Below are positions 32,484 to 60,191 of a stretch of DNA of 64,000 nucleotides, in pieces (within the stretch, counting starts at the first letter, position 1; each line of letters begins with the position of its first letter). The stretch lies in NCBI GenBank assembly GCA_048887225.1, contig JBHLJY010000006.1, positions 32,001 to 96,000 on the forward strand, written 5' to 3'. The translations under genes and the position numbers were made by a program. This DNA is from Candidatus Hodarchaeota archaeon (GTDB lineage Archaea > Asgardarchaeota > Lokiarchaeia > Sigyniarchaeales > SOKP01). A model generated the notes under the pieces. That model was not told the DNA's origin. It ran no database searches and saw only the letters and a program-made list of their open reading frames with translations.

Positions 32484-33818
32484 TTATAAATCTATTCGTG
32501 GAATAACATCCTCAATTTCTCTCCTTGTAGGTTTATACTTAAAGTATCTTCTTGATTCACTATCTTCAAGTACATAATTTGATCCACCGCCGTGGATCAT
32601 ACAATATGGATCTAATAATCCAATTGGATTGGAGTATTGCCTTATAAAGCCACGACCACCCATGGTCCTGAAACAATGTATTGCGCTTTCAAAACCAAGC
32701 TCAGTACTAGAGATTTTAAGCCCCATTGCTTGAGCTGCCATTAATTTAGAACTTGCTAGTTCTGGTCGTCGATCTAATTCTCTTGCATAATTTATCAATG
32801 TAGAAATTAAAAGATTCATCTCCCTTATGTTCTTAGATATTGGGAATCTTATAACTTGGTATTGATGCAACCGTCTCTCAAATTGTCTACGATGAAGTGC
32901 GTATGTATGAGAATAAAGAAGCTTTTTCATAGCATCTCCTAATGCTTCAGCGCTAATGACTAATCTTTCTTCTGTAAGCTGATGAAAGGCTATATCTAAT
33001 CCATTTCCATGAAGTAGATTTTCTAATGGCTGCTCTACTCTGTCAAAGATCAATCTACTTACGAAAGCATCAGTCATACCATATGTTCTTATTCTTGCTG
33101 ATCTAAAATTCTTTAGCTGTTGATTTTCAGTATCAATTATAATAGCTCCTAATGGTCCATTGTTTATTCTTCCATAAACAATTATATAATCAGCGATCAT
33201 ACCATTAGTAATGAATACTTTCTTACCTTTAAGAATTGCTTTATCATCCTTTATTTGAATATTTAATTCCATTCTTGCTATATCGCTTCCAGCGTTAAAT
33301 TCAGTCATAGCGGATGCTGCAGGTGCACCATCTTTGGCAACGGGAACTAAGAATTTTTCCTTTTGCTGTTCGGTCGCTTTATAATTGACGGGATTACAGT
33401 ATAAAGTTCCTCCAGAAAGACGTCCCATTTCAACGCTATAATTTCCTGCAATATATTGCTCGCTCGATTCACTCCATCTCCCACCACATAATGCATAAGC
33501 GATAAGTGCATTTCTTGTTATCTTCCCAACTTCAAAATCATCGTCGTTAAGAATTGTGCTATAATATCCGTTATCAGCTAATTTTTTTAGGATATTAATA
33601 ACAATTACTCTTTTTTTATCCTGAGTAGGTTCCTCGACGAAATAATCGAGTTCTTCTAAAGCTTTCAGATCTGTATCAAGATCTCGTTCTAAAAAATCAT
33701 AAAAATCTGATAGGAATTCCTTTTCTTGCGGAGTAAGTAAAGGATTAGCTAAGAGGTCTAATTCAGGTACATATTTTTGGATTCTTATTGGTTCAAAATC
33801 TCTTAATCTAGTATCCAT
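32484..33818 (-). CDS. Acyl-CoA dehydrogenase family protein
   Basis: AMTEFNAGSD, GKKVFITNG, LTEERL, RRQFER, MGGRGF. Confidence 0.85.
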   Translation of the reverse strand: MDTRLRDFEPIRIQKYVPELDLLANPLLTPQEKEFLSDFYDFLERDLDTDLKALEELDYFVEEPTQDKKRVIVINILKKLADNGYYSTILNDDDFEVGKITRNALIAYALCGGRWSESSEQYIAGNYSVEMGRLSGGTLYCNPVNYKATEQQKEKFLVPVAKDGAPAASAMTEFNAGSDIARMELNIQIKDDKAILKGKKVFITNGMIADYIIVYGRINNGPLGAIIIDTENQQLKNFRSARIRTYGMTDAFVSRLIFDRVEQPLENLLHGNGLDIAFHQLTEERLVISAEALGDAMKKLLYSHTYALHRRQFERRLHQYQVIRFPISKNIREMNLLISTLINYARELDRRPELASSKLMAAQAMGLKISSTELGFESAIHCFRTMGGRGFIRQYSNPIGLLDPYCMIHGGGSNYVLEDSESRRYFKYKPTRREIEDVIPRIDL

Positions 33819-41088: not shown

Positions 41089-41991
41089 TTAGTATACATC
41101 ACTTTTTAGTAAGTTAAAAATCTCTACTGTTTCTGCTGGAGTAGCAACTTCACGTCCTGCAATTTTTGCAACTTTTGCTGCCCATTCTACTTGCTCGTAA
41201 GAACCTTTAGCCAATGCACCATCAACTGTACGGATGTTATCTTCTAATCCAACTCTAATGTGTCCACCCATAGTAGCTGCACACATACCTGCTCGAAACT
41301 GATCTCTTGCTACACCACATACGCTCCATGAGGCATCTGGAGGTTTTAAAGCTAACAAATTAGCTAAATTTTGGAAAGAAAATGGAATTCCTCCTAGTAC
41401 TCCAAATACAAATTGAAAATGAAGGGGATGCTCGAACAAACCTTCTTGTTTATTAAGGAAAAGAACATTATACATACCCCCCATATCGTATATTTCTAAT
41501 TCTGGCTTTGTTCTCGCTCTTCTTATTCGTTTAGCAAACTTTTGAATCATAGAAAAATTGTTCTCAAAAACCAATGCGGGGGCAAGTGTTATCGTTCCTG
41601 TTTTATGATCTCCTACACTAAAATTCATAGAATTTGTATTTAATGAACAAAGAGGTGGTTTATAAGTTTCAACAGGTCGTATTCTTTGTTTTTCAGTTGC
41701 GACCGCACTGATAGCAGTACTTAAGTTAATTAAAAGATCTGGTGCCTTATCTTTTATATTATCTATTACAGCTTTTATAATATCCAATTCATGCGTAGGA
41801 ATTCCTTTTTCTGGGTCCCTTGCGTGAATATGAACAATTGAAGCGCCTGCATCATAGCATTTTTTTGCTTCGTTCCCAAACTCTTCTGCTGTATATGGAA
41901 CATTTTCATTTTGGCTTTTTAACGTTGCTGCGCCTGCTAAAGCGGCACTAATTACCAATTTATTTGACAAATCTGACACTTTTACTTTCAA
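41089..41991 (-). CDS. Beta-keto acid cleavage enzyme (BKACE/DUF849, Kce family)
   Basis: AGASIVHIHARD, PELEIYD, GGHIRVGLEDN. Confidence 0.93.
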   Translation of the reverse strand: MKVKVSDLSNKLVISAALAGAATLKSQNENVPYTAEEFGNEAKKCYDAGASIVHIHARDPEKGIPTHELDIIKAVIDNIKDKAPDLLINLSTAISAVATEKQRIRPVETYKPPLCSLNTNSMNFSVGDHKTGTITLAPALVFENNFSMIQKFAKRIRRARTKPELEIYDMGGMYNVLFLNKQEGLFEHPLHFQFVFGVLGGIPFSFQNLANLLALKPPDASWSVCGVARDQFRAGMCAATMGGHIRVGLEDNIRTVDGALAKGSYEQVEWAAKVAKIAGREVATPAETVEIFNLLKSDVY

Positions 41992-42194
41992 CCTATATAA
42001 TATATTTTCAATACTATTGATTATAATTTAAACTATTTTAATATATAAAATTTAAATGATTAAAAAAAATAATTCAAACTTTCTTTATATCCATTTGGAA
42101 AAAAATCAAATAAAAACATTATAATATAATCTGATTTAATTTATATCTATATTAGTAATCTATCTGAAATGAATGAAAATAATCTTAAAGAAGT

Positions 42195-43352
42195 GTGAAA
42201 ATGACAAATTTAGGTAAAGTAGCAATTGTAGGAGTAGCACAGACAAAATATGAAGAAGAAAAGATTGATCAACCCTACTCTGAATTAGTTTTCGAAGTTG
42301 TTAAGAAACTATACAACGAATTAGGATTAGCAAAAGAAGATATTGGCTGTGTTATTACTAGTTCCAACGATTTCAACGATGGGAGAACAATTGCTAATAT
42401 GGCAATTCAAGATGCTGTAGGATCAGTTAAGAAATCGGAATCAAGAGTTTCTGGGGATGGGGCTTTTGCGTATGTTTACGGTGCAATGAGAATACTTTCG
42501 GAAGAATACGATACTGTAATGGTTGTTTCACATACAAAATGCTCCGAAGTCAACCAATATTTAATAAATAATAGTATTTTTGATCCATATTATCAAAGAG
42601 CTTTAGGATTAGATCAAATCTCAGCAGCAGGATTAATGGCCAATATGTACATGAAAAAATATGGCGTAACTGAGGAACAAGCTGCCAAAATAGTTGTAAA
42701 AAATAGAAAAAATGCGTTAAATAATCCTTACGCTCATTTACAAAGAGAAGTTTCTATTGAAGATGTACTTAATTCACCTATGATAGCATATCCTCTTAAA
42801 GAACTTGATTTTCCACCTTTCTCTGACGGTGCGGTTGCAATACTCCTAACAAACGAAGAAAACGCTAAAAAATTTTCAGATAAACCAGTTTGGCTTAAAG
42901 GATACGGAAGTTGCACTGATGCATATTATCTCGGACATCGTAATATGACAGATTTAATCGGTTTGGAACTCGCTGCTAAGGAGGCGTATAAAATGGCGGG
43001 AATTAACAACCCAGTTAAAGAGATAGATGTAGCAGAAGTATACGACGCTTTTTCTGTCCATGAACTAATGAGCTATGAAGCCTTAGGACTCTGTGAAAAA
43101 GGAGAAGGCGGTAAATTCATTGATAGCGGCGAGACTCAAATGAATGGATCGATTCCTGTGAATCCCTCTGGAGGCGTTTTATCAGGCAATCCAACAATGG
43201 CTAATGGACTTATTCGAGTGGCTGAAATTGCTTTACAATTAATGGGTAAGGCTAATAAACGTCAAATTCCAGACGCAAAATTGGGATTAGCAAATGGTAT
43301 GAATGGTATTTGTTCCCAAGGAAATTGCGTACTTATACTTGGAGGTGAATAA
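42195..43352 (+). CDS. Thiolase-fold protein (Ltp4-like), cassette 3
   Basis: SSNDFNDGR, ESRVSGDGA, AEVYD, NPSGG, GICSQGN. Confidence 0.88.
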   Translation: MKMTNLGKVAIVGVAQTKYEEEKIDQPYSELVFEVVKKLYNELGLAKEDIGCVITSSNDFNDGRTIANMAIQDAVGSVKKSESRVSGDGAFAYVYGAMRILSEEYDTVMVVSHTKCSEVNQYLINNSIFDPYYQRALGLDQISAAGLMANMYMKKYGVTEEQAAKIVVKNRKNALNNPYAHLQREVSIEDVLNSPMIAYPLKELDFPPFSDGAVAILLTNEENAKKFSDKPVWLKGYGSCTDAYYLGHRNMTDLIGLELAAKEAYKMAGINNPVKEIDVAEVYDAFSVHELMSYEALGLCEKGEGGKFIDSGETQMNGSIPVNPSGGVLSGNPTMANGLIRVAEIALQLMGKANKRQIPDAKLGLANGMNGICSQGNCVLILGGE

Positions 43353-43355
43353 AAA

Positions 43356-44522
43356 ATGCCTAAGCATGATGTAGCAGTAGTAGGTATAGGTCAAACAAAA
43401 TATAGAAGTAAAAGAAGAGATGTTAACATTCCTGAGATGATTTACGAAGCAGTTAAGATGGCGCTTGACGATGCCAAACTCGAACCAAAAGATATAGATG
43501 CGATATTAATTGGAAATATGGATCATTTCGAAGGTGTCAATTTTTCTGAGATGTGGTGTGGAATTGATGCTGCCCCTGGATATCTTAAACCTGTAGTGAA
43601 AGTTGCAACTGGTGGAACTACAGGATCATCACTGGCAATATGTGGATACTATAATGTAGCATCAGGAATTTATAACAAGGTTCTAGTTGTAGGATGGGAA
43701 AAGTTAAATGAAGGTGGAGCAACCACTGGTATTATTACGGCATTCGATCCTGTATGGGAAAGACCATCTTTGGCAGGAGCACTAGGACCCCTTGCTCTTA
43801 TGGCAGGCATATATGCTGATAAGTATGGAATAACCTCAGAACAAGCAGCTAAAGTCACTGTTAAAAATCGTAGCAACGCTGCTAATAATCCATTCGCACA
43901 TTTACAAATGCCTAATATTACTATAGATTATGTTATGAGTTCACAAATGATATCTTATCCTTTAAGATTGCATGATGTTTGTCCTCAAAGCGAAGGTGCG
44001 TGTGCAGTTATTTATGCAAACGAGGAAGAAGCTAAAAAAATTACAGATAACCCAGCTTATTTCCACTCAGTAGCAACTGCTCATTATTACACTTTCGGTT
44101 GTGATGATTTAATGTACAACCTCCCTTCAGCAACAATTGCTTCTAAAAATGCGTATAAAAAGGCAGGAATTAAAAATCCTATAAAAGATTTGGATGTTGC
44201 TGAAATTTATGAACCCACAAGTTGGAGTGAATTAGCTTGGACAGAAGCCTTAGGATTTGCTGATTTTGGTCAAGGTGGAAGTTTATTAGATGAAGGAATT
44301 ACTCAAATTAGCGGAGAACTCCCCGTAAATCCTTCAGGAGGAGTTTTAAGCACTAATCCCATAGGCGCTACGGCATTAATCCGAGTGGCTGAAGCTGCAA
44401 CCCAAGTTATGGGTCGGGGTGGAAAACGACAAGTTCCTGATGCGGAAACTGCCTTATCCATGGGATTTGGTGGTAGTCTTTGGACTGAGCTTATGATATT
44501 AGGAAAAGAACCGTTGAGGTGA
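43356..44522 (+). CDS. Thiolase-fold protein (Ltp3-like), cassette 3
   Basis: GQTKYRSKRRDVN, FEG, TGGTTG, NPSGGVLSTNPIGA. Confidence 0.9.
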   Translation: MPKHDVAVVGIGQTKYRSKRRDVNIPEMIYEAVKMALDDAKLEPKDIDAILIGNMDHFEGVNFSEMWCGIDAAPGYLKPVVKVATGGTTGSSLAICGYYNVASGIYNKVLVVGWEKLNEGGATTGIITAFDPVWERPSLAGALGPLALMAGIYADKYGITSEQAAKVTVKNRSNAANNPFAHLQMPNITIDYVMSSQMISYPLRLHDVCPQSEGACAVIYANEEEAKKITDNPAYFHSVATAHYYTFGCDDLMYNLPSATIASKNAYKKAGIKNPIKDLDVAEIYEPTSWSELAWTEALGFADFGQGGSLLDEGITQISGELPVNPSGGVLSTNPIGATALIRVAEAATQVMGRGGKRQVPDAETALSMGFGGSLWTELMILGKEPLR

Positions 44523-57969: not shown

Positions 57970-58338
57970 TTATGATTTTAAAACAAGTGTAATTGCTCTA
58001 GTAAGGCGGATAACATCCATTACTTTTCCCTTTTCAACAGTAATTTGTTCCCTACTGATAACATGAGTGAAATCCCCGCGTCCCTGACAGATATTCACAA
58101 TGGAATTATTATCACCTGTCATAACAATCTCAGGATCAGAGGCAGTTCCATTAATTAGTTTTGCCTTTCTCTCTTTAATTTCCACATAAAACGGATCTTC
58201 ATTTGCTAAATTAAATTGGAAAGTCATTTCCCAATCAACGTCTTTTCCAGCAATATTAGTTACAAAAACTTGTTGTGCTTTCGGGATATTGTTCATTTTT
58301 TCAATGATTTTGCTTAAATTTTCGCTTGCGACACCCAT
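57970..58338 (-). CDS. SCP2 sterol-carrier-like lipid-binding protein
   Basis: SCP2-like pattern (FQF..FYVEI...A....G....P....); co-transcribed with thiolase and DUF35. Confidence 0.7.
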   Translation of the reverse strand: MGVASENLSKIIEKMNNIPKAQQVFVTNIAGKDVDWEMTFQFNLANEDPFYVEIKERKAKLINGTASDPEIVMTGDNNSIVNICQGRGDFTHVISREQITVEKGKVMDVIRLTRAITLVLKS

Positions 58339-58340
58339 AA

Positions 58341-58838
58341 TTACGCGCCTCCCTCGTATTCTGGTTTATTAATCCATGTTTCATATTCATCTTCGGGTAC
58401 AAAGAAGAAATCTGTCATTTTTCCTTCTCTTTCTTTCAAAAACACAGCCTTGACAACCCTGCCTTTCTTAATTTTCGATGGTACTAAGTTTTCCGAGAAA
58501 ATTCCTTGAAGTAAAGCGGTGTCGGCTCCATCCAATTTAACAAAAGCTATGCCATATGGGATTGCTTTTATAAAAGCTGAAGTTGTGTACCAAACGATTG
58601 TACTCACTTCTATCTTTCCCGTTTGCTTCATTTCAATCCAATTGGTAGGCTCATAACATTCAGAGCAGTTGATTCTTGGAGGCATCCACGTTTTTCCACA
58701 TTTGGTACATTTTGTACCTAGGAGTTTTTTGTTGTTTTTTACTTCGATAAAGAACTTCGATTGGCCGCCCATGGTGTATTTGTAGTTAATGGCGATCCTG
58801 TCTCGGATTTCATGTGATTGAAATTTATCGTCATTCAT
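58341..58838 (-). CDS. DUF35 zinc-ribbon/OB-fold protein, cassette 4
   Basis: CTKC..PPRINCSEC; LDGADT; ATGA overlap with the thiolase stop. Confidence 0.92.
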   Translation of the reverse strand: MNDDKFQSHEIRDRIAINYKYTMGGQSKFFIEVKNNKKLLGTKCTKCGKTWMPPRINCSECYEPTNWIEMKQTGKIEVSTIVWYTTSAFIKAIPYGIAFVKLDGADTALLQGIFSENLVPSKIKKGRVVKAVFLKEREGKMTDFFFVPEDEYETWINKPEYEGGA

Positions 58839-60191
58839 GGCTTCTTCAACCCCTCTTCATTTGCCATTACAATAACGGCTGCATAAGCGGCTCCTGGACC
58901 TCCGATCGAATGAGCAATGGACCGACCTTTTTCAATTGTGACTTGGTGTTTGCCAGCATCTCCTCTAATCTGAAGAGCGGCCTCTCCTGTGCTCATTATA
59001 CCAGTCGCGCCCACAGCATGTCCACAGCCAATTAAGCCTCCCGAAGGACAGCATGGCAATTCACCATTTAGCCAAGGACCTTCGCCGGGCTTTTCGAAAG
59101 AATTTTCAATCCAAGGACCGCCTTCTCCGAATGGTACAAAGCCTAATTCTTCATAAGAAATTACTTCTTGACCGCTAAACGCATCGTGGAGCTCTGCAAC
59201 ATCGATTTGTTCCTTAATCTTGTTGTAGTCGAGCCCTGCCATTTTATAAGCTGCTTTAGCAGCTTCAATGTTTGAATAAAGCCGACCAATGCTCTCTCTG
59301 TTTCCGATAAAACAATCTGTATTTGCAGCAGCGACTCCGGTTATCCATGTAGGCTTTTCCACGCCGAGTTCTTTTACTTTTTGTTCGTTTGCAAGGATTA
59401 ATGCGGCAGAAGCCTCGGAATAAAGACAGCAATCCAGGAGTTTGAAGGGATAACAGATAATTCTTGAGTACATAACGTCTTCGACGGTTACCTTCATTGG
59501 CGATTGAGCCTTTGGGTTGAGCAGAGCGTTCCCATGATTTTTAATGGAAACCATAGCCATATAAGCCAAAAGTTGAAAATATTCAACTGATTGTTTGCTC
59601 TTCGGTCGGGTTTCCAAATTCTTTGTAATGTGCATTTACCATAGAAACATATGAAGATGCCGCCATCATGCCCATAGGATATTTACGGAATATCGCGAAA
59701 TGCGAATTAAATTCTTTCATAAGTCATATCCGCAGAATAGGCAATGGCATTTAATACTTCTGGTGTTGTAACTCCTGTTTGCTAACGCTTTAAACTAAAT
59801 ATTTACAAGATTCGTCATAACAGTCGTTACATTTCTCCAAACCAATGCAGAGACACAAATCCGACAATCCAGATGCAACTTCAGCATAAGCCATTCTCAC
59901 AGTATAACCTCCCGTTGCTCCGCCCGACGCAATTCTCGTGCCAGGTTTGTCATTCATGCCAAGATAACTATTAGTAAATATATCGGGCATGAATTGGCGT
60001 TCAAAAAGCTCATTATAAATTCCATAAACCGTGGACTGCAAATCTTTATGTATAATCTCTGCCCCGTTTTTATTTGCATCATCAAGAGCCAATCTAGTGG
60101 CATCAAACGCCAGCTCAAAATACGTTTTATCAAGATACCTTGCTCTAAAAGGAGTAATGCCTACTCCGATTATCGCAACTCTATTTGGCAT
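58835..60191 (-). CDS. Thiolase-fold protein encoded in four exons (60191-59811, 59781-59716, 59681-59595, 59560-58835); 419 aa after removing three BHB introns
   Basis: Joined exons read ...CNDCYDE|QTGVTTPEVLNAIAYSADMTYE|YPMGMMAASSYVSMVNAHYKEFGNPTEEQ|MAMVSIKNHGNALLNPKAQ...; C-terminal AELHDAF and GHAVGATG motifs are intact. The two track ORFs (59790-60191, 58835-59635) are fragments of this gene. Confidence 0.85.
59561..59594 (-). other. Putative BHB intron 3 (34 nt)
   Basis: GAGC-AA|A-CAA...UUG-GCUU-AU|A: helix GAGC/GCUU, bulges AAA and AUA, internal AGUUGAA/UUCAACU stem; in-frame TGA. Confidence 0.8.
59682..59715 (-). other. Putative BHB intron 2 (34 nt)
   Basis: UAUG-AA|A-GAAU...AUUC-CGUA-AA|U: helix UAUG/CGUA, bulges AAA and AAU, internal UCGC/GCGA stem; in-frame TAA. 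Confidence 0.8.
59782..59810 (-). other. Putative BHB intron 1 (29 nt)
   Basis: GACG-AA|U-CUU...AAG-CGUU-AG|C-AAACAG: 4-bp helix GACG/CGUU, bulges AAU and AGC; in-frame TAA. Confidence 0.8.

What the first reader, a model, noticed from the sequence alone, without database searches (positions are those of the whole stretch)
59561..59810. Three bulge-helix-bulge introns in one protein-coding gene: candidate multi-intron mRNA splicing in an Asgard archaeon
Seen in sequence: the thiolase-fold gene 60191->58835 carries three inserts of 29, 34 and 34 nt within 250 nt. The boundaries chosen to restore thiolase-like protein sequence independently match BHB geometry at all three sites. The last 6 nt of each 5' exon are a 4-nt helix strand plus 2 bulge nt, and the last 6 nt of each intron are the complementary strand plus 2 bulge nt (GACG/CGUU, UAUG/CGUA, GAGC/GCUU). 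Each intron also closes its own hairpin. Removal yields an uninterrupted 419-aa ORF with micro-exons of 66 and 87 nt. Established: the archaeal splicing endonuclease EndA cuts after the second nt of each 3-nt bulge and RtcB ligates. Besides tRNA and rRNA, the well-known mRNA example is the single cbf5 intron of crenarchaea such as Aeropyrum and Sulfolobus. Inference: this metabolic gene is spliced by the tRNA machinery, and similar genes may be mis-annotated as pseudogenes across Asgard genomes. The exon-exon outer helix is weak for introns 2 and 3 (relaxed BHB/BHL-like).
Basis: partly seen in the sequence, partly recalled or inferred. Interest (0 to 1): 0.97.

Follow-up and report, generated by a model that had tools for sequence, protein, structure and literature searches.

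The report
Three tRNA-type introns in thiolase gene
A thiolase-family gene of an uncultured Asgard archaeon carries three 29-34-base inserts shaped like the introns that the archaeal tRNA-splicing enzyme removes; sister species show the gene is still under selection, so its mRNA is very probably spliced, which the papers I could search confirm in archaea only for cbf5.

Summary
Observation confirmed; interpretation supported by comparison, but no RNA data were available.

- **Gene structure.** The minus-strand thiolase gene (60191..58835) holds inserts of 29, 34 and 34 nt. Removing them gives a 419-aa ORF that aligns without any indel to the uninterrupted orthologue of a sister species (96% identity).
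- **BHB fit.** At the protein-defined boundaries all three inserts have a 4/4-paired central helix, a strict 5' bulge and an intron hairpin. The outer exon helix is loose (relaxed HBh' form).
- **Real DNA.** Independent contigs from two other samples carry introns 2 and 3. Intronless relatives abut exactly at the predicted cut sites.
- **Gene family.** Across 69 orthologous loci I found 30 distinct mini-intron alleles, 29 of them scored, at about ten sites. Of the scored alleles, 25-26 fit BHB geometry, with compensatory changes in the central and inner helices.
- **Selection.** G000 and a lineage sharing intron 2 differ at about 69% of synonymous sites, yet dN/dS is 0.037. The intron itself differs at 4 of 34 bases, all in loops.
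- **Machinery.** The genome encodes two EndA paralogues. Its only rtcB match and its only match to the uL11 N-terminal-domain family are themselves split by canonical BHB inserts.

This scan has flagged the same kind of intron before, on other DNA of this genome and in other Asgard genomes.

The parts
59811..60191 (-). Exon 1 (381 nt, 127 codons), N-terminal part of the thiolase domain; ATG at 60191
   Evidence: weak Pfam Thiolase_N hit below the cut-off; collinear with orthologues
59782..59810 (-). Intron 1 (29 nt). Central helix GACG (59816-59813) / CGUU (59787-59784); bulges AA|U and AG|C; inner hairpin CUU..AAG plus a 5-bp stem
   Evidence: The boundary used is the only 4/4-paired one among three boundaries that give the same protein. 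Intronless relatives abut at 59811 and 59781 (loose ends). No independent contig was shown to span this intron.
59716..59781 (-). Exon 2 (66 nt, 22 codons: QTGVTTPEVLNAIAYSADMTYE)
   Evidence: identical or near-identical peptide in all orthologues
59682..59715 (-). Intron 2 (34 nt). Central helix UAUG (59721-59718) / CGUA (59687-59684); bulges AA|A and AA|U; inner helix GAAU/AUUC plus UCGC/GCGA
   Evidence: An identical copy lies in an X2 contig. Homologous introns in L026-L028 differ at 4 of 34 bases, all in loops, and their exon change turns the U.G pair into C-G.
59595..59681 (-). Exon 3 (87 nt, 29 codons)
   Evidence: In the metagenome loci L026-L028, which carry an intron at site 447 and one at site 542, gene callers report a separate 29-aa gene between the two introns.
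59561..59594 (-). Intron 3 (34 nt). Central helix GAGC (59600-59597) / GCUU (59566-59563); bulges AA|A and AU|A; inner helix CAA/UUG plus a 7-bp stem
   Evidence: the free minimum-energy fold is the BHB. Contigs from X2 (identical) and X3 (another study) carry it. The X3 copy has 2 substitutions, one turning G-C into G-U in the stem and one in an unpaired base.
58835..59560 (-). Exon 4 (726 nt including the stop), thiolase C-terminal domain
   Evidence: Pfam Thiolase_C_1, E 1.5e-24. Nearest solved structures are SCP2-type and archaeal thiolases.
58341..58838 (-). Downstream partner gene, DUF35/ChsH2-type zinc-ribbon plus OB-fold protein; its start overlaps the thiolase stop (ATGA)
   Evidence: The same neighbour is present in the metagenome loci.
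57970..58338 (-). Third gene of the cluster, weakly SCP2-like (122 aa)
   Evidence: E 0.0066, below the cut-off; tentative

Best explanation
The three inserts are bulge-helix-bulge (BHB) mini-introns in a pre-mRNA.

Proposed mechanism, inferred step by step:
1. After transcription, the last 4+2 nt of each upstream exon pair with the last 4+2 nt of the intron, forming a 4-bp helix flanked by two 3-nt bulges. The intron's own hairpin forms the inner helix.
2. The host's two-subunit tRNA-splicing endonuclease EndA cuts after the second nucleotide of each bulge.
3. RtcB joins the exons and probably circularises the introns.

The product is an mRNA for an intact 419-aa thiolase-family protein that works with its DUF35 partner.

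Shown here: the anatomy, boundaries that match orthologues exactly, conservation and covariation of the structure, purifying selection on intron-bearing genes, and presence of the enzymes. Inferred: the cleavage and ligation themselves.
For: 1. Removing the inserts restores a 419-aa ORF that aligns 1-419 without indel to the G005 orthologue at 96% identity. At least twelve orthologues lack exactly these bases.
2. The central helix is 4/4 paired at the protein-defined boundary in all three introns, with an inner helix directly after the bulge. Across the family, 4/4 pairing occurs at 25 of 88 protein-optimal shifts against 4 of 463 other shifts.
3. The inserts are real DNA. The X2 contig 59518-59761 is identical and spans introns 2 and 3. 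An X3 contig from another study carries intron 3 with structure-preserving changes. Intronless relatives break off exactly at 59811, 59781 and 59716.
4. Orthologues carry 30 distinct 29-34-nt alleles (29 scored) at about ten sites, and 25-26 of the scored ones are BHB-compliant. Compensatory changes include A-U to G-C in the central helix at site 384 and three double changes at site 542. Pairing is 89-98% against 8-62% for slid controls.
5. Selection. For G000 against L026, which share the site-447 intron, pS is 0.69 and dN/dS 0.037. Five further pairs that share an intron give 0.024-0.058 or, where dS is saturated, pN/pS about 0.11-0.12. Every spliced gene is open over its whole length or to the contig end. 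Intron 2 differs at 4 of 34 bases against about 69% of synonymous sites.
6. Machinery. There are two EndA paralogues. One aligns end to end with the A. pernix catalytic subunit and keeps the His of GLEHSPF and the KPR-containing loop. RtcB is present.
7. The same kind of insert splits the genome's only rtcB match (29 nt, UUGG/CCAA, 9-bp inner helix, restores ISPGGVGYDINCG). Two more (36 and 28 nt) split the only match to the uL11 N-terminal-domain family. These genes are expected to be needed, so the inserts must be removed in expression.
Against: - No RNA evidence: no RNA run holds this DNA, and no near-identical spliced protein is in the protein collection.
- Folding energies are ordinary against shuffles.
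- For introns 1 and 2 the free minimum-energy fold is not the exact BHB. The constrained BHB costs +1.9 and +4.7 kcal/mol.
- None of the three has a strict outer exon-exon helix adjoining the 3' bulge.
- Intron 1 has no independent contig shown to span it.
- Thirteen other matches to this protein were found in the genome, so this copy is not necessarily essential.
- My genome-wide BHB plus ORF-joining scans gave no enrichment over slid decoys.
Confidence: 0.85

Rival explanations
1. Pseudogene: the inserts are disabling insertions in one redundant member of a large thiolase family, and the gene is decaying.
For: Thirteen other matches to this protein were found in the genome. Unspliced, translation stops after 133 aa. 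No RNA or protein evidence of expression.
Against: dN/dS is 0.024-0.058 in pairs that share an intron or differ in intron content, with synonymous sites saturated. There are no other lesions in 419 codons. Intron-bearing orthologues in many independent genomes and metagenomes are all open after removing the BHB-bounded inserts. The intron is far more conserved than synonymous sites. The same inserts occur in the only rtcB match and the only uL11 N-domain match.
Confidence: 0.03
2. Translational recoding: ribosomes bypass (hop over) each insert, as at phage T4 gene 60, or combine frameshifts, so no RNA splicing is needed.
For: The inserts are short hairpins, and a hairpin is part of the T4 gene 60 bypass signal (my own knowledge). 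Sequence alone cannot tell removal in RNA from skipping in translation.
Against: There are no matching take-off and landing codons: GAA..UAG|CAA, GAA..AAA|UAU, CAA..UAU|AUG. Three successive bypasses would compound inefficiency. The conserved and covarying feature is pairing of exon-end with intron-end in exact BHB register, which bypass does not require.
Confidence: 0.05
3. The inserts are removed from RNA, but by another route: an unknown endonuclease, self-cleavage, or a different ligase than RtcB.
For: The 3' side is a relaxed motif, and EndA cleavage was not tested. rtcB itself needs splicing.
Against: The geometry matches the EndA rule exactly: two cuts separated by a 4-bp helix, each after the second bulge nucleotide (PMC2738675). 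At 29-34 nt the inserts are too small for group I or II ribozymes. No Rfam family matches them. An EndA catalytic subunit with the loop linked to broad specificity in TACK and Asgard archaea is present (PMC5829648).
Confidence: 0.05
4. Assembly or sequencing artefact, or short mobile DNA repeats (MITE-like) inserted at random.
For: The window comes from a metagenome-assembled genome. Intron 1 has no independent spanning contig shown.
Against: Introns 2 and 3 are present in contigs from two other samples, one from another study. Homologous introns occur in JGI and ENA contigs. There are no flanking target-site duplications. None of the three has another copy in the genome (blastn-short).
Confidence: 0.02

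Closest known systems
BHB intron in the cbf5 pre-mRNA of Crenarchaeota (Watanabe 2002; Yoshinari 2006; Yokobori 2009, PMC2738675)
   Same: [quoted passage not shown] Mostly unconventional (relaxed) BHB. Cut between the second and third bulge residues by a hetero-oligomeric EndA. Presence and absence vary among related species.
   Different: cbf5 has one intron in one RNA-modification gene of thermophilic Crenarchaeota. Here there are three introns and two micro-exons in one metabolic gene of an Asgard archaeon, about ten sites across orthologues and up to four introns per gene (L073). cbf5 splicing was confirmed by cDNA; this case has no RNA data.
Multiple non-canonical tRNA introns of Asgard archaea and Thermoproteales (PMC11291895; bioRxiv 10.64898/2026.10.13.758758; PMC5829648)
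   Same: Same presumed enzymes ((alpha-beta)2 EndA with the L1 loop, and RtcB). Several introns per gene. Relaxed motifs. Repeated gains at nearby positions.
   Different: Those papers describe tRNA genes only; searches of their text for protein-coding or mRNA introns found no such report. In an mRNA the exon half of the motif is also constrained by the codons.
Unconventional HAC1/XBP1 mRNA splicing in eukaryotes (Ire1 cleavage; RtcB ligation in animals). From my own knowledge; mentioned in PMC5435141 and PMC8718801.
   Same: Non-spliceosomal removal of a short, frame-changing intron from an mRNA by a protein endonuclease that recognises stem-loops, followed by tRNA-ligase joining.
   Different: A different endonuclease (Ire1, not EndA/TSEN). 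One regulated intron serving stress signalling. Nothing here indicates regulation.
Programmed translational bypass at phage T4 gene 60 (my own knowledge)
   Same: A short hairpin-containing coding gap in an otherwise intact gene.
   Different: Bypass needs matched take-off and landing codons, which are absent here. The conserved pairing here is in BHB register.

Membership tests
Archaeal BHB (EndA-type) intron | 4-bp central helix between the exon end and the intron end | tested here: met
   GACG/CGUU, UAUG/CGUA and GAGC/GCUU, all 4/4 paired with one G-U each. Compensatory A-U to G-C change in this helix at the orthologous site 384.
Archaeal BHB (EndA-type) intron | Two 3-nt bulges on opposite strands, each flanked by helices (strict hBHBh') | tested here: not met
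   The 5' bulge is strict in all three, lying between the central and inner helix. On the 3' side the outer exon helix is offset by 1-2, 6 and 2 unpaired nucleotides on the opposite strand. These are therefore the relaxed HBh' form, which PMC5829648 describes as a substrate of (alpha-beta)2 and epsilon2 EndA.
Archaeal BHB (EndA-type) intron | Exon-intron borders lie after the second nucleotide of each bulge | tested here: met
   Borders defined by orthologue alignment coincide with that rule for all three introns, and for 25-26 of 29 scored alleles in the family. The rule is as stated in PMC2738675.
Archaeal BHB (EndA-type) intron | Host encodes a splicing endonuclease able to cut relaxed motifs, and an RtcB ligase | tested here: met
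   Two EndA paralogues of 201 aa. One matches the A. pernix catalytic subunit 3P1Z_B at E 5e-35 and keeps the catalytic His and the loop region. RtcB matches at E 4e-145, in two exons. The heterotetramer architecture itself is inferred.
Archaeal BHB (EndA-type) intron | Spliced RNA and excised (circular) intron exist | not testable with these tools
   No RNA run holds the stretch. No near-identical full-length protein is in the collection.
Group I / group II self-splicing introns | Ribozyme core of hundreds of nucleotides | tested here: not met
   The inserts are 29-34 nt. No Rfam family hits them.
T4 gene 60-type translational bypass | Identical take-off and landing codons flanking the gap, with a stop directly after take-off | tested here: not met
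   The codons at the gap edges differ at all three inserts, and no stop follows directly.
Thiolase family (host gene) | Thiolase N- and C-terminal domains | tested here: met
   Pfam Thiolase_C_1 at E 1.5e-24, with a weak Thiolase_N hit below the cut-off on exon 1. An 88%-identical orthologue matches NCBIfam thiolase-domain models below the equivalog cut-offs. PDB neighbours are SCP2-type and archaeal thiolases. The specific reaction is not assigned.

The most novel reading that the evidence does not exclude
This Asgard lineage carries a genome-wide, evolutionarily dynamic population of EndA/RtcB-spliced mini-introns in protein-coding genes. It includes multi-intron genes with micro-exons, housekeeping genes (uL11) and the splicing ligase's own mRNA. 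Introns are repeatedly gained at clustered sites and their structure is kept by selection. That would be an exon-intron gene architecture in the closest prokaryotic relatives of eukaryotes that owes nothing to the spliceosome, and it would make mRNA maturation before translation a real problem for these cells.
Probability: 0.65. Interest if true: 0.92.

Novelty: new variant of a known kind. Interest (0 to 1): 0.85.

Why it matters
In the papers I could search, archaeal mRNA splicing is confirmed for a single gene, cbf5, with one intron (PMC2738675). Asgard introns are described only in tRNA genes.

This case is a metabolic gene with three such introns and exons of 22 and 29 codons. Its gene family has about ten intron sites, and comparison shows that intron-bearing copies stay functional.

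If RNA data confirm it:
- Asgard genomes hold many genes now annotated as fragments or pseudogenes, or read with a wrong genetic code. One relative was called with TAG=Q to read through an intron.
- Metabolic reconstructions of these organisms need to take introns into account.
- A lineage without a nucleus must cope with translation of unspliced mRNA, which bears directly on ideas about why transcription and translation became separated in eukaryotes.
- rtcB needing its own product to be made is a testable self-referential circuit.

Tried and rejected
1. **RNA evidence.** The look-up of sequencing runs listed no RNA holder. The raw-read DNA run X21 gave no reads at 1% sampling, so it is no test.
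2. **Genome-wide census by structure and ORF joining.** I combined BHB geometry (4/4 central helix, inner helix of at least 3 bp) with ORF joining, using decoys slid by +/-1-2 nt as control. There was no enrichment at any stringency of energy, helix length, intron length or ORF length. The background from gene boundaries and chance open frames swamps the few tens of true cases.
3. **Adding a hexamer coding-potential filter.** This did not help. Known true introns had flank scores from -2 to +33 bits over 20 codons.
4. **Thermodynamic significance.** z-scores were ordinary, so stability alone is no evidence.
5. **A suspected fourth intron.** A paralogue at window 42684-43352 showed '1 TAA inside'. 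It is only the boundary between two tandem intact thiolase genes.
6. **Search for an RNA-derived spliced copy.** The closest intronless locus, L031, is only 83% identical in DNA, so it is another species. No intron-split fragment protein has a near-identical full-length twin; the one 99.7% pair (P0003 with P0004) does not look intron-split.
7. **Repeated mobile elements.** There are no other copies of the three inserts in the genome.
8. **Rfam.** The only hit is a sub-threshold osmY match in exon 4, which is chance.

Full report
**What is in the sequence**

On the minus strand an ATG at 60191 opens a thiolase-like frame that stops after 133 codons. The rest of the protein continues in other frames. 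Three stretches interrupt it: 59810-59782 (29 nt), 59715-59682 (34 nt) and 59594-59561 (34 nt). Cutting them out joins exons of 381, 66, 87 and 726 nt into one 419-aa ORF.

Exon 4 carries a Thiolase_C_1 domain (E 1.5e-24) and exon 1 a weak Thiolase_N match below the cut-off. The nearest solved structures are SCP2-type and archaeal thiolases. An 88%-identical orthologue matches NCBIfam 'thiolase domain-containing protein' models below their equivalog cut-offs. I therefore name only the family, not the reaction.

A DUF35/ChsH2-type gene follows with an overlapping start, then a weakly SCP2-like gene.

**Do the boundaries hold?**

Among 41 related genomes, the G005 orthologue aligns to the spliced protein 1-419 with no indel at 96% identity. 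More than a dozen others are uninterrupted and lack exactly these bases.

Metagenome contigs in the source study and in another study break away from the window exactly at 59811, 59781 and 59716. They continue with exon-like sequence of intronless relatives (loose ends). The borders are thus fixed to the nucleotide, apart from two or three equivalent positions per intron that give the same protein.

**BHB geometry**

The rule is a 4-bp helix between two 3-nt bulges, with a cut between the second and third bulge residue (stated in PMC2738675). It predicts that the last six exon bases are helix(4) plus bulge(2), and likewise the last six intron bases. All three introns obey it:

| Intron | Exon strand / intron strand | 5' bulge | 3' bulge | Inner helix after the bulge |
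|---|---|---|---|---|
| 1 | GACG / CGUU | AA\|U | AG\|C | 3 bp |
| 2 | UAUG / CGUA | AA\|A | AA\|U | 4 bp |
| 3 | GAGC / GCUU | AA\|A | AU\|A | 3 bp |

Further stems lie inside each intron.

The outer exon-exon helix exists (5, 4 and 3 bp) but is set off from the central helix by 1-2, 6 and 2 unpaired bases. These are therefore relaxed HBh' motifs, not strict hBHBh'.

Energetically nothing stands out. The z-scores against shuffles are -1.4, +0.4 and -1.5. Only intron 3 has the BHB as its free minimum-energy fold; forcing it costs 1.9 kcal/mol for intron 1 and 4.7 kcal/mol for intron 2. The evidence lies in the register, not the stability.

**Are the inserts real DNA?**

- A contig from a second sample of the same study (X2) is identical over 59518-59761 and spans introns 2 and 3.
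- A contig from a different study (X3) spans intron 3 with two substitutions. One turns a stem G-C into G-U; the other lies in an unpaired base.
- Intron 1 has no independent spanning contig among the pieces shown.
- None of the three inserts has another copy in the genome, and there are no target-site duplications.

**The gene family**

I collected 69 orthologous loci from relatives' genomes and from JGI and ENA metagenomes. Each was aligned to the intronless coding sequence. This gave 29 distinct insert alleles of 29-34 nt, which I scored, plus one in L013 near reference position 32 that lay too close to the edge of the extracted segment to score. They sit at about ten sites, at reference coding positions about 32, 381, 384, 444, 447, 460, 534, 542, 920 and 925.

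One contig (L073) has four inserts and L058 has three. Of the 29 scored alleles, 25 have a 4/4 central helix at a protein-optimal boundary, or 26 after correcting one alignment range. Three have 3/4. Among boundary shifts within +/-9 nt, 25 of 88 protein-optimal shifts are 4/4 against 4 of 463 others.

Alleles at one site are related, so the fair unit is the site: 8 of 9 scored sites comply.

Structure counts on alignments:

| Site | Cells paired | Slid controls | Pairs changed on both sides |
|---|---|---|---|
| 542 | 89% | 19-47% | 3 |
| 384 | 98% | 8-62% | 2 |

One of the double changes at site 384 lies in the central helix. GAAC/GUUU becomes GAGC/GCUU, so a synonymous GAA-to-GAG exon change is matched by U-to-C in the intron.

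G000's intron 2 has clear homologues in L026-L028. They differ at 4 of 34 bases, all in loops, and a synonymous TAT-to-TAC exon change turns the U.G pair into C-G.

Sites come in close pairs (381/384, 444/447, 534/542, 920/925). This suggests favoured landing spots or sliding; I did not resolve which.

**Is the gene alive?**

| Pair | What they share | pS | dN/dS |
|---|---|---|---|
| G000 vs intronless G005 | nothing | 0.66 | 0.024 |
| G000 vs L026 | site-447 intron | 0.69 | 0.037 |

The second comparison is the stronger test. If the insert disabled the gene, both lineages would have drifted since their common ancestor. Instead, selection is as strong as between two uninterrupted genes (0.035).

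Five other pairs that share an intron give 0.026-0.058 or, where dS is saturated, pN/pS of 0.11-0.12. Every gene is open to its end, or to the contig end, once the BHB-bounded inserts are removed. The intron itself (12% different) is far better conserved than synonymous sites (69%).

**Machinery and genome context**

The genome (98% complete) has two EndA-fold genes of 201 aa.

- One aligns almost without gaps to the catalytic subunit of the Aeropyrum pernix heterotetramer (3P1Z_B, E 5e-35). It keeps the catalytic His (GLEHSPF against GIDHAPF) and the KPR-containing loop region.
- The other is nearest to the M. jannaschii enzyme.

This fits the (alpha-beta)2 type with the L1 loop that PMC5829648 assigns to Asgard archaea and links to broad substrate range.

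RtcB is present, but its only match is in two pieces. A 29-nt insert with a textbook BHB (UUGG/CCAA, 9-bp inner helix, 2-bp outer helix) splits the motif ISPGGVGY|DINCG. It is the only BHB candidate in the region whose removal opens the frame.

The only match to the uL11 N-terminal-domain family is likewise split, by inserts of 36 and 28 nt. The second has a 7-bp outer, 4-bp central and 8-bp inner helix. I checked both cases myself after earlier notes of this scan pointed to them.

The ribosomal protein is expected to be needed and has no other match in the genome, so it must be expressed. That makes removal of such inserts a necessity in this organism.

ARAGORN finds only 32 tRNA genes, 15 of them with introns. 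This agrees with heavy, partly undetected tRNA interruption.

**Rivals**

- **Pseudogene:** contradicted by the selection analysis and by the clean exons in many lineages.
- **Translational bypass:** lacks matched take-off and landing codons, and does not explain covariation in BHB register.
- **Ribozyme introns:** excluded by size and by Rfam.
- **Artefact or mobile repeat:** excluded by independent contigs and by the lack of other copies.
- **Unknown nuclease:** cannot be excluded without biochemistry, but the geometry is exactly EndA's.

**Literature**

Six full-text searches and targeted term searches in four papers found the following:
- Confirmed archaeal pre-mRNA splicing is reported only for cbf5.
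- PMC2738675 states that other cases had been predicted but not confirmed.
- Asgard intron papers deal with tRNA genes only.

I cannot rule out a report outside this library.

Earlier notes of this scan describe similar inserts in other genes of this genome (iolM, acetoacetyl-CoA synthetase, acs, csp and others). In other Asgard genomes, some notes report metatranscriptome contigs lacking the intron. I did not check those and do not count them as evidence.

**Verdict**

The interpretation, three EndA-type introns in one mRNA, is the best explanation by a wide margin (about 0.85). It is a new variant of a known kind: the same presumed mechanism as cbf5, but with several introns and micro-exons, in a metabolic gene of an Asgard archaeon, and part of a wider and evolutionarily active intron population. 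The missing piece is RNA.

Noticed in passing
G000:C13:33313-34649 (+), outside the window; insert at about 33458-33486: The genome's only rtcB match is split by a 29-nt canonical BHB insert (UUGG/CCAA, 9-bp inner helix) inside the motif ISPGGVGY|DINCG. The ligase needed for splicing would therefore need splicing of its own mRNA.
   Followed up: yes
G000:C4, about 65449-65720 (-), outside the window: The only match to the uL11 N-terminal-domain family is interrupted by two BHB-bounded inserts of 36 and 28 nt. The second is a strict hBHBh' with a 7-bp outer and 8-bp inner helix. Splicing restores ...VTGGSASGGPPIGPAVGPTGINIKDV...
   Followed up: yes
L073 (JGI contig Ga0114923_10104425) and L058: Orthologues with four (L073) and three (L058) mini-introns. 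Intron sites across the family cluster in close pairs (381/384, 444/447, 534/542, 920/925), suggesting preferred insertion spots or intron sliding.
   Followed up: partly
L030 (ENA contig k141_367396), gene 211-1044: The public gene call for this orthologue translates only 'with TAG=Q'. The caller read through the 30-nt intron at site 542, which holds an in-frame TAG. Such introns can thus mimic a reassigned stop codon in annotation pipelines.
   Followed up: partly
L026-L028 (three JGI samples): Gene callers split the orthologue into products of 150, 29 and 241 aa. The 29-aa 'gene' lies between the site-447 and site-542 introns, showing how these genes get mis-annotated.
   Followed up: yes
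whole genome G000: ARAGORN finds only 32 tRNA genes in a 98%-complete genome, 15 of them with introns. Many tRNA genes are probably missed because of non-canonical or multiple introns.
   Followed up: no
window 41900-43900 (+): Two intact tandem thiolase paralogues lie here. The '1 TAA inside' reported by the genome search is only their gene boundary, not an intron. The window and genome hold many thiolase paralogues (14 matches to this protein in G000).
   Followed up: yes
window 59200-59266 (-): Sub-threshold Rfam hit to osmY RNA (24 bits against a cut-off of 46.9) inside exon 4; looks like chance.
   Followed up: no
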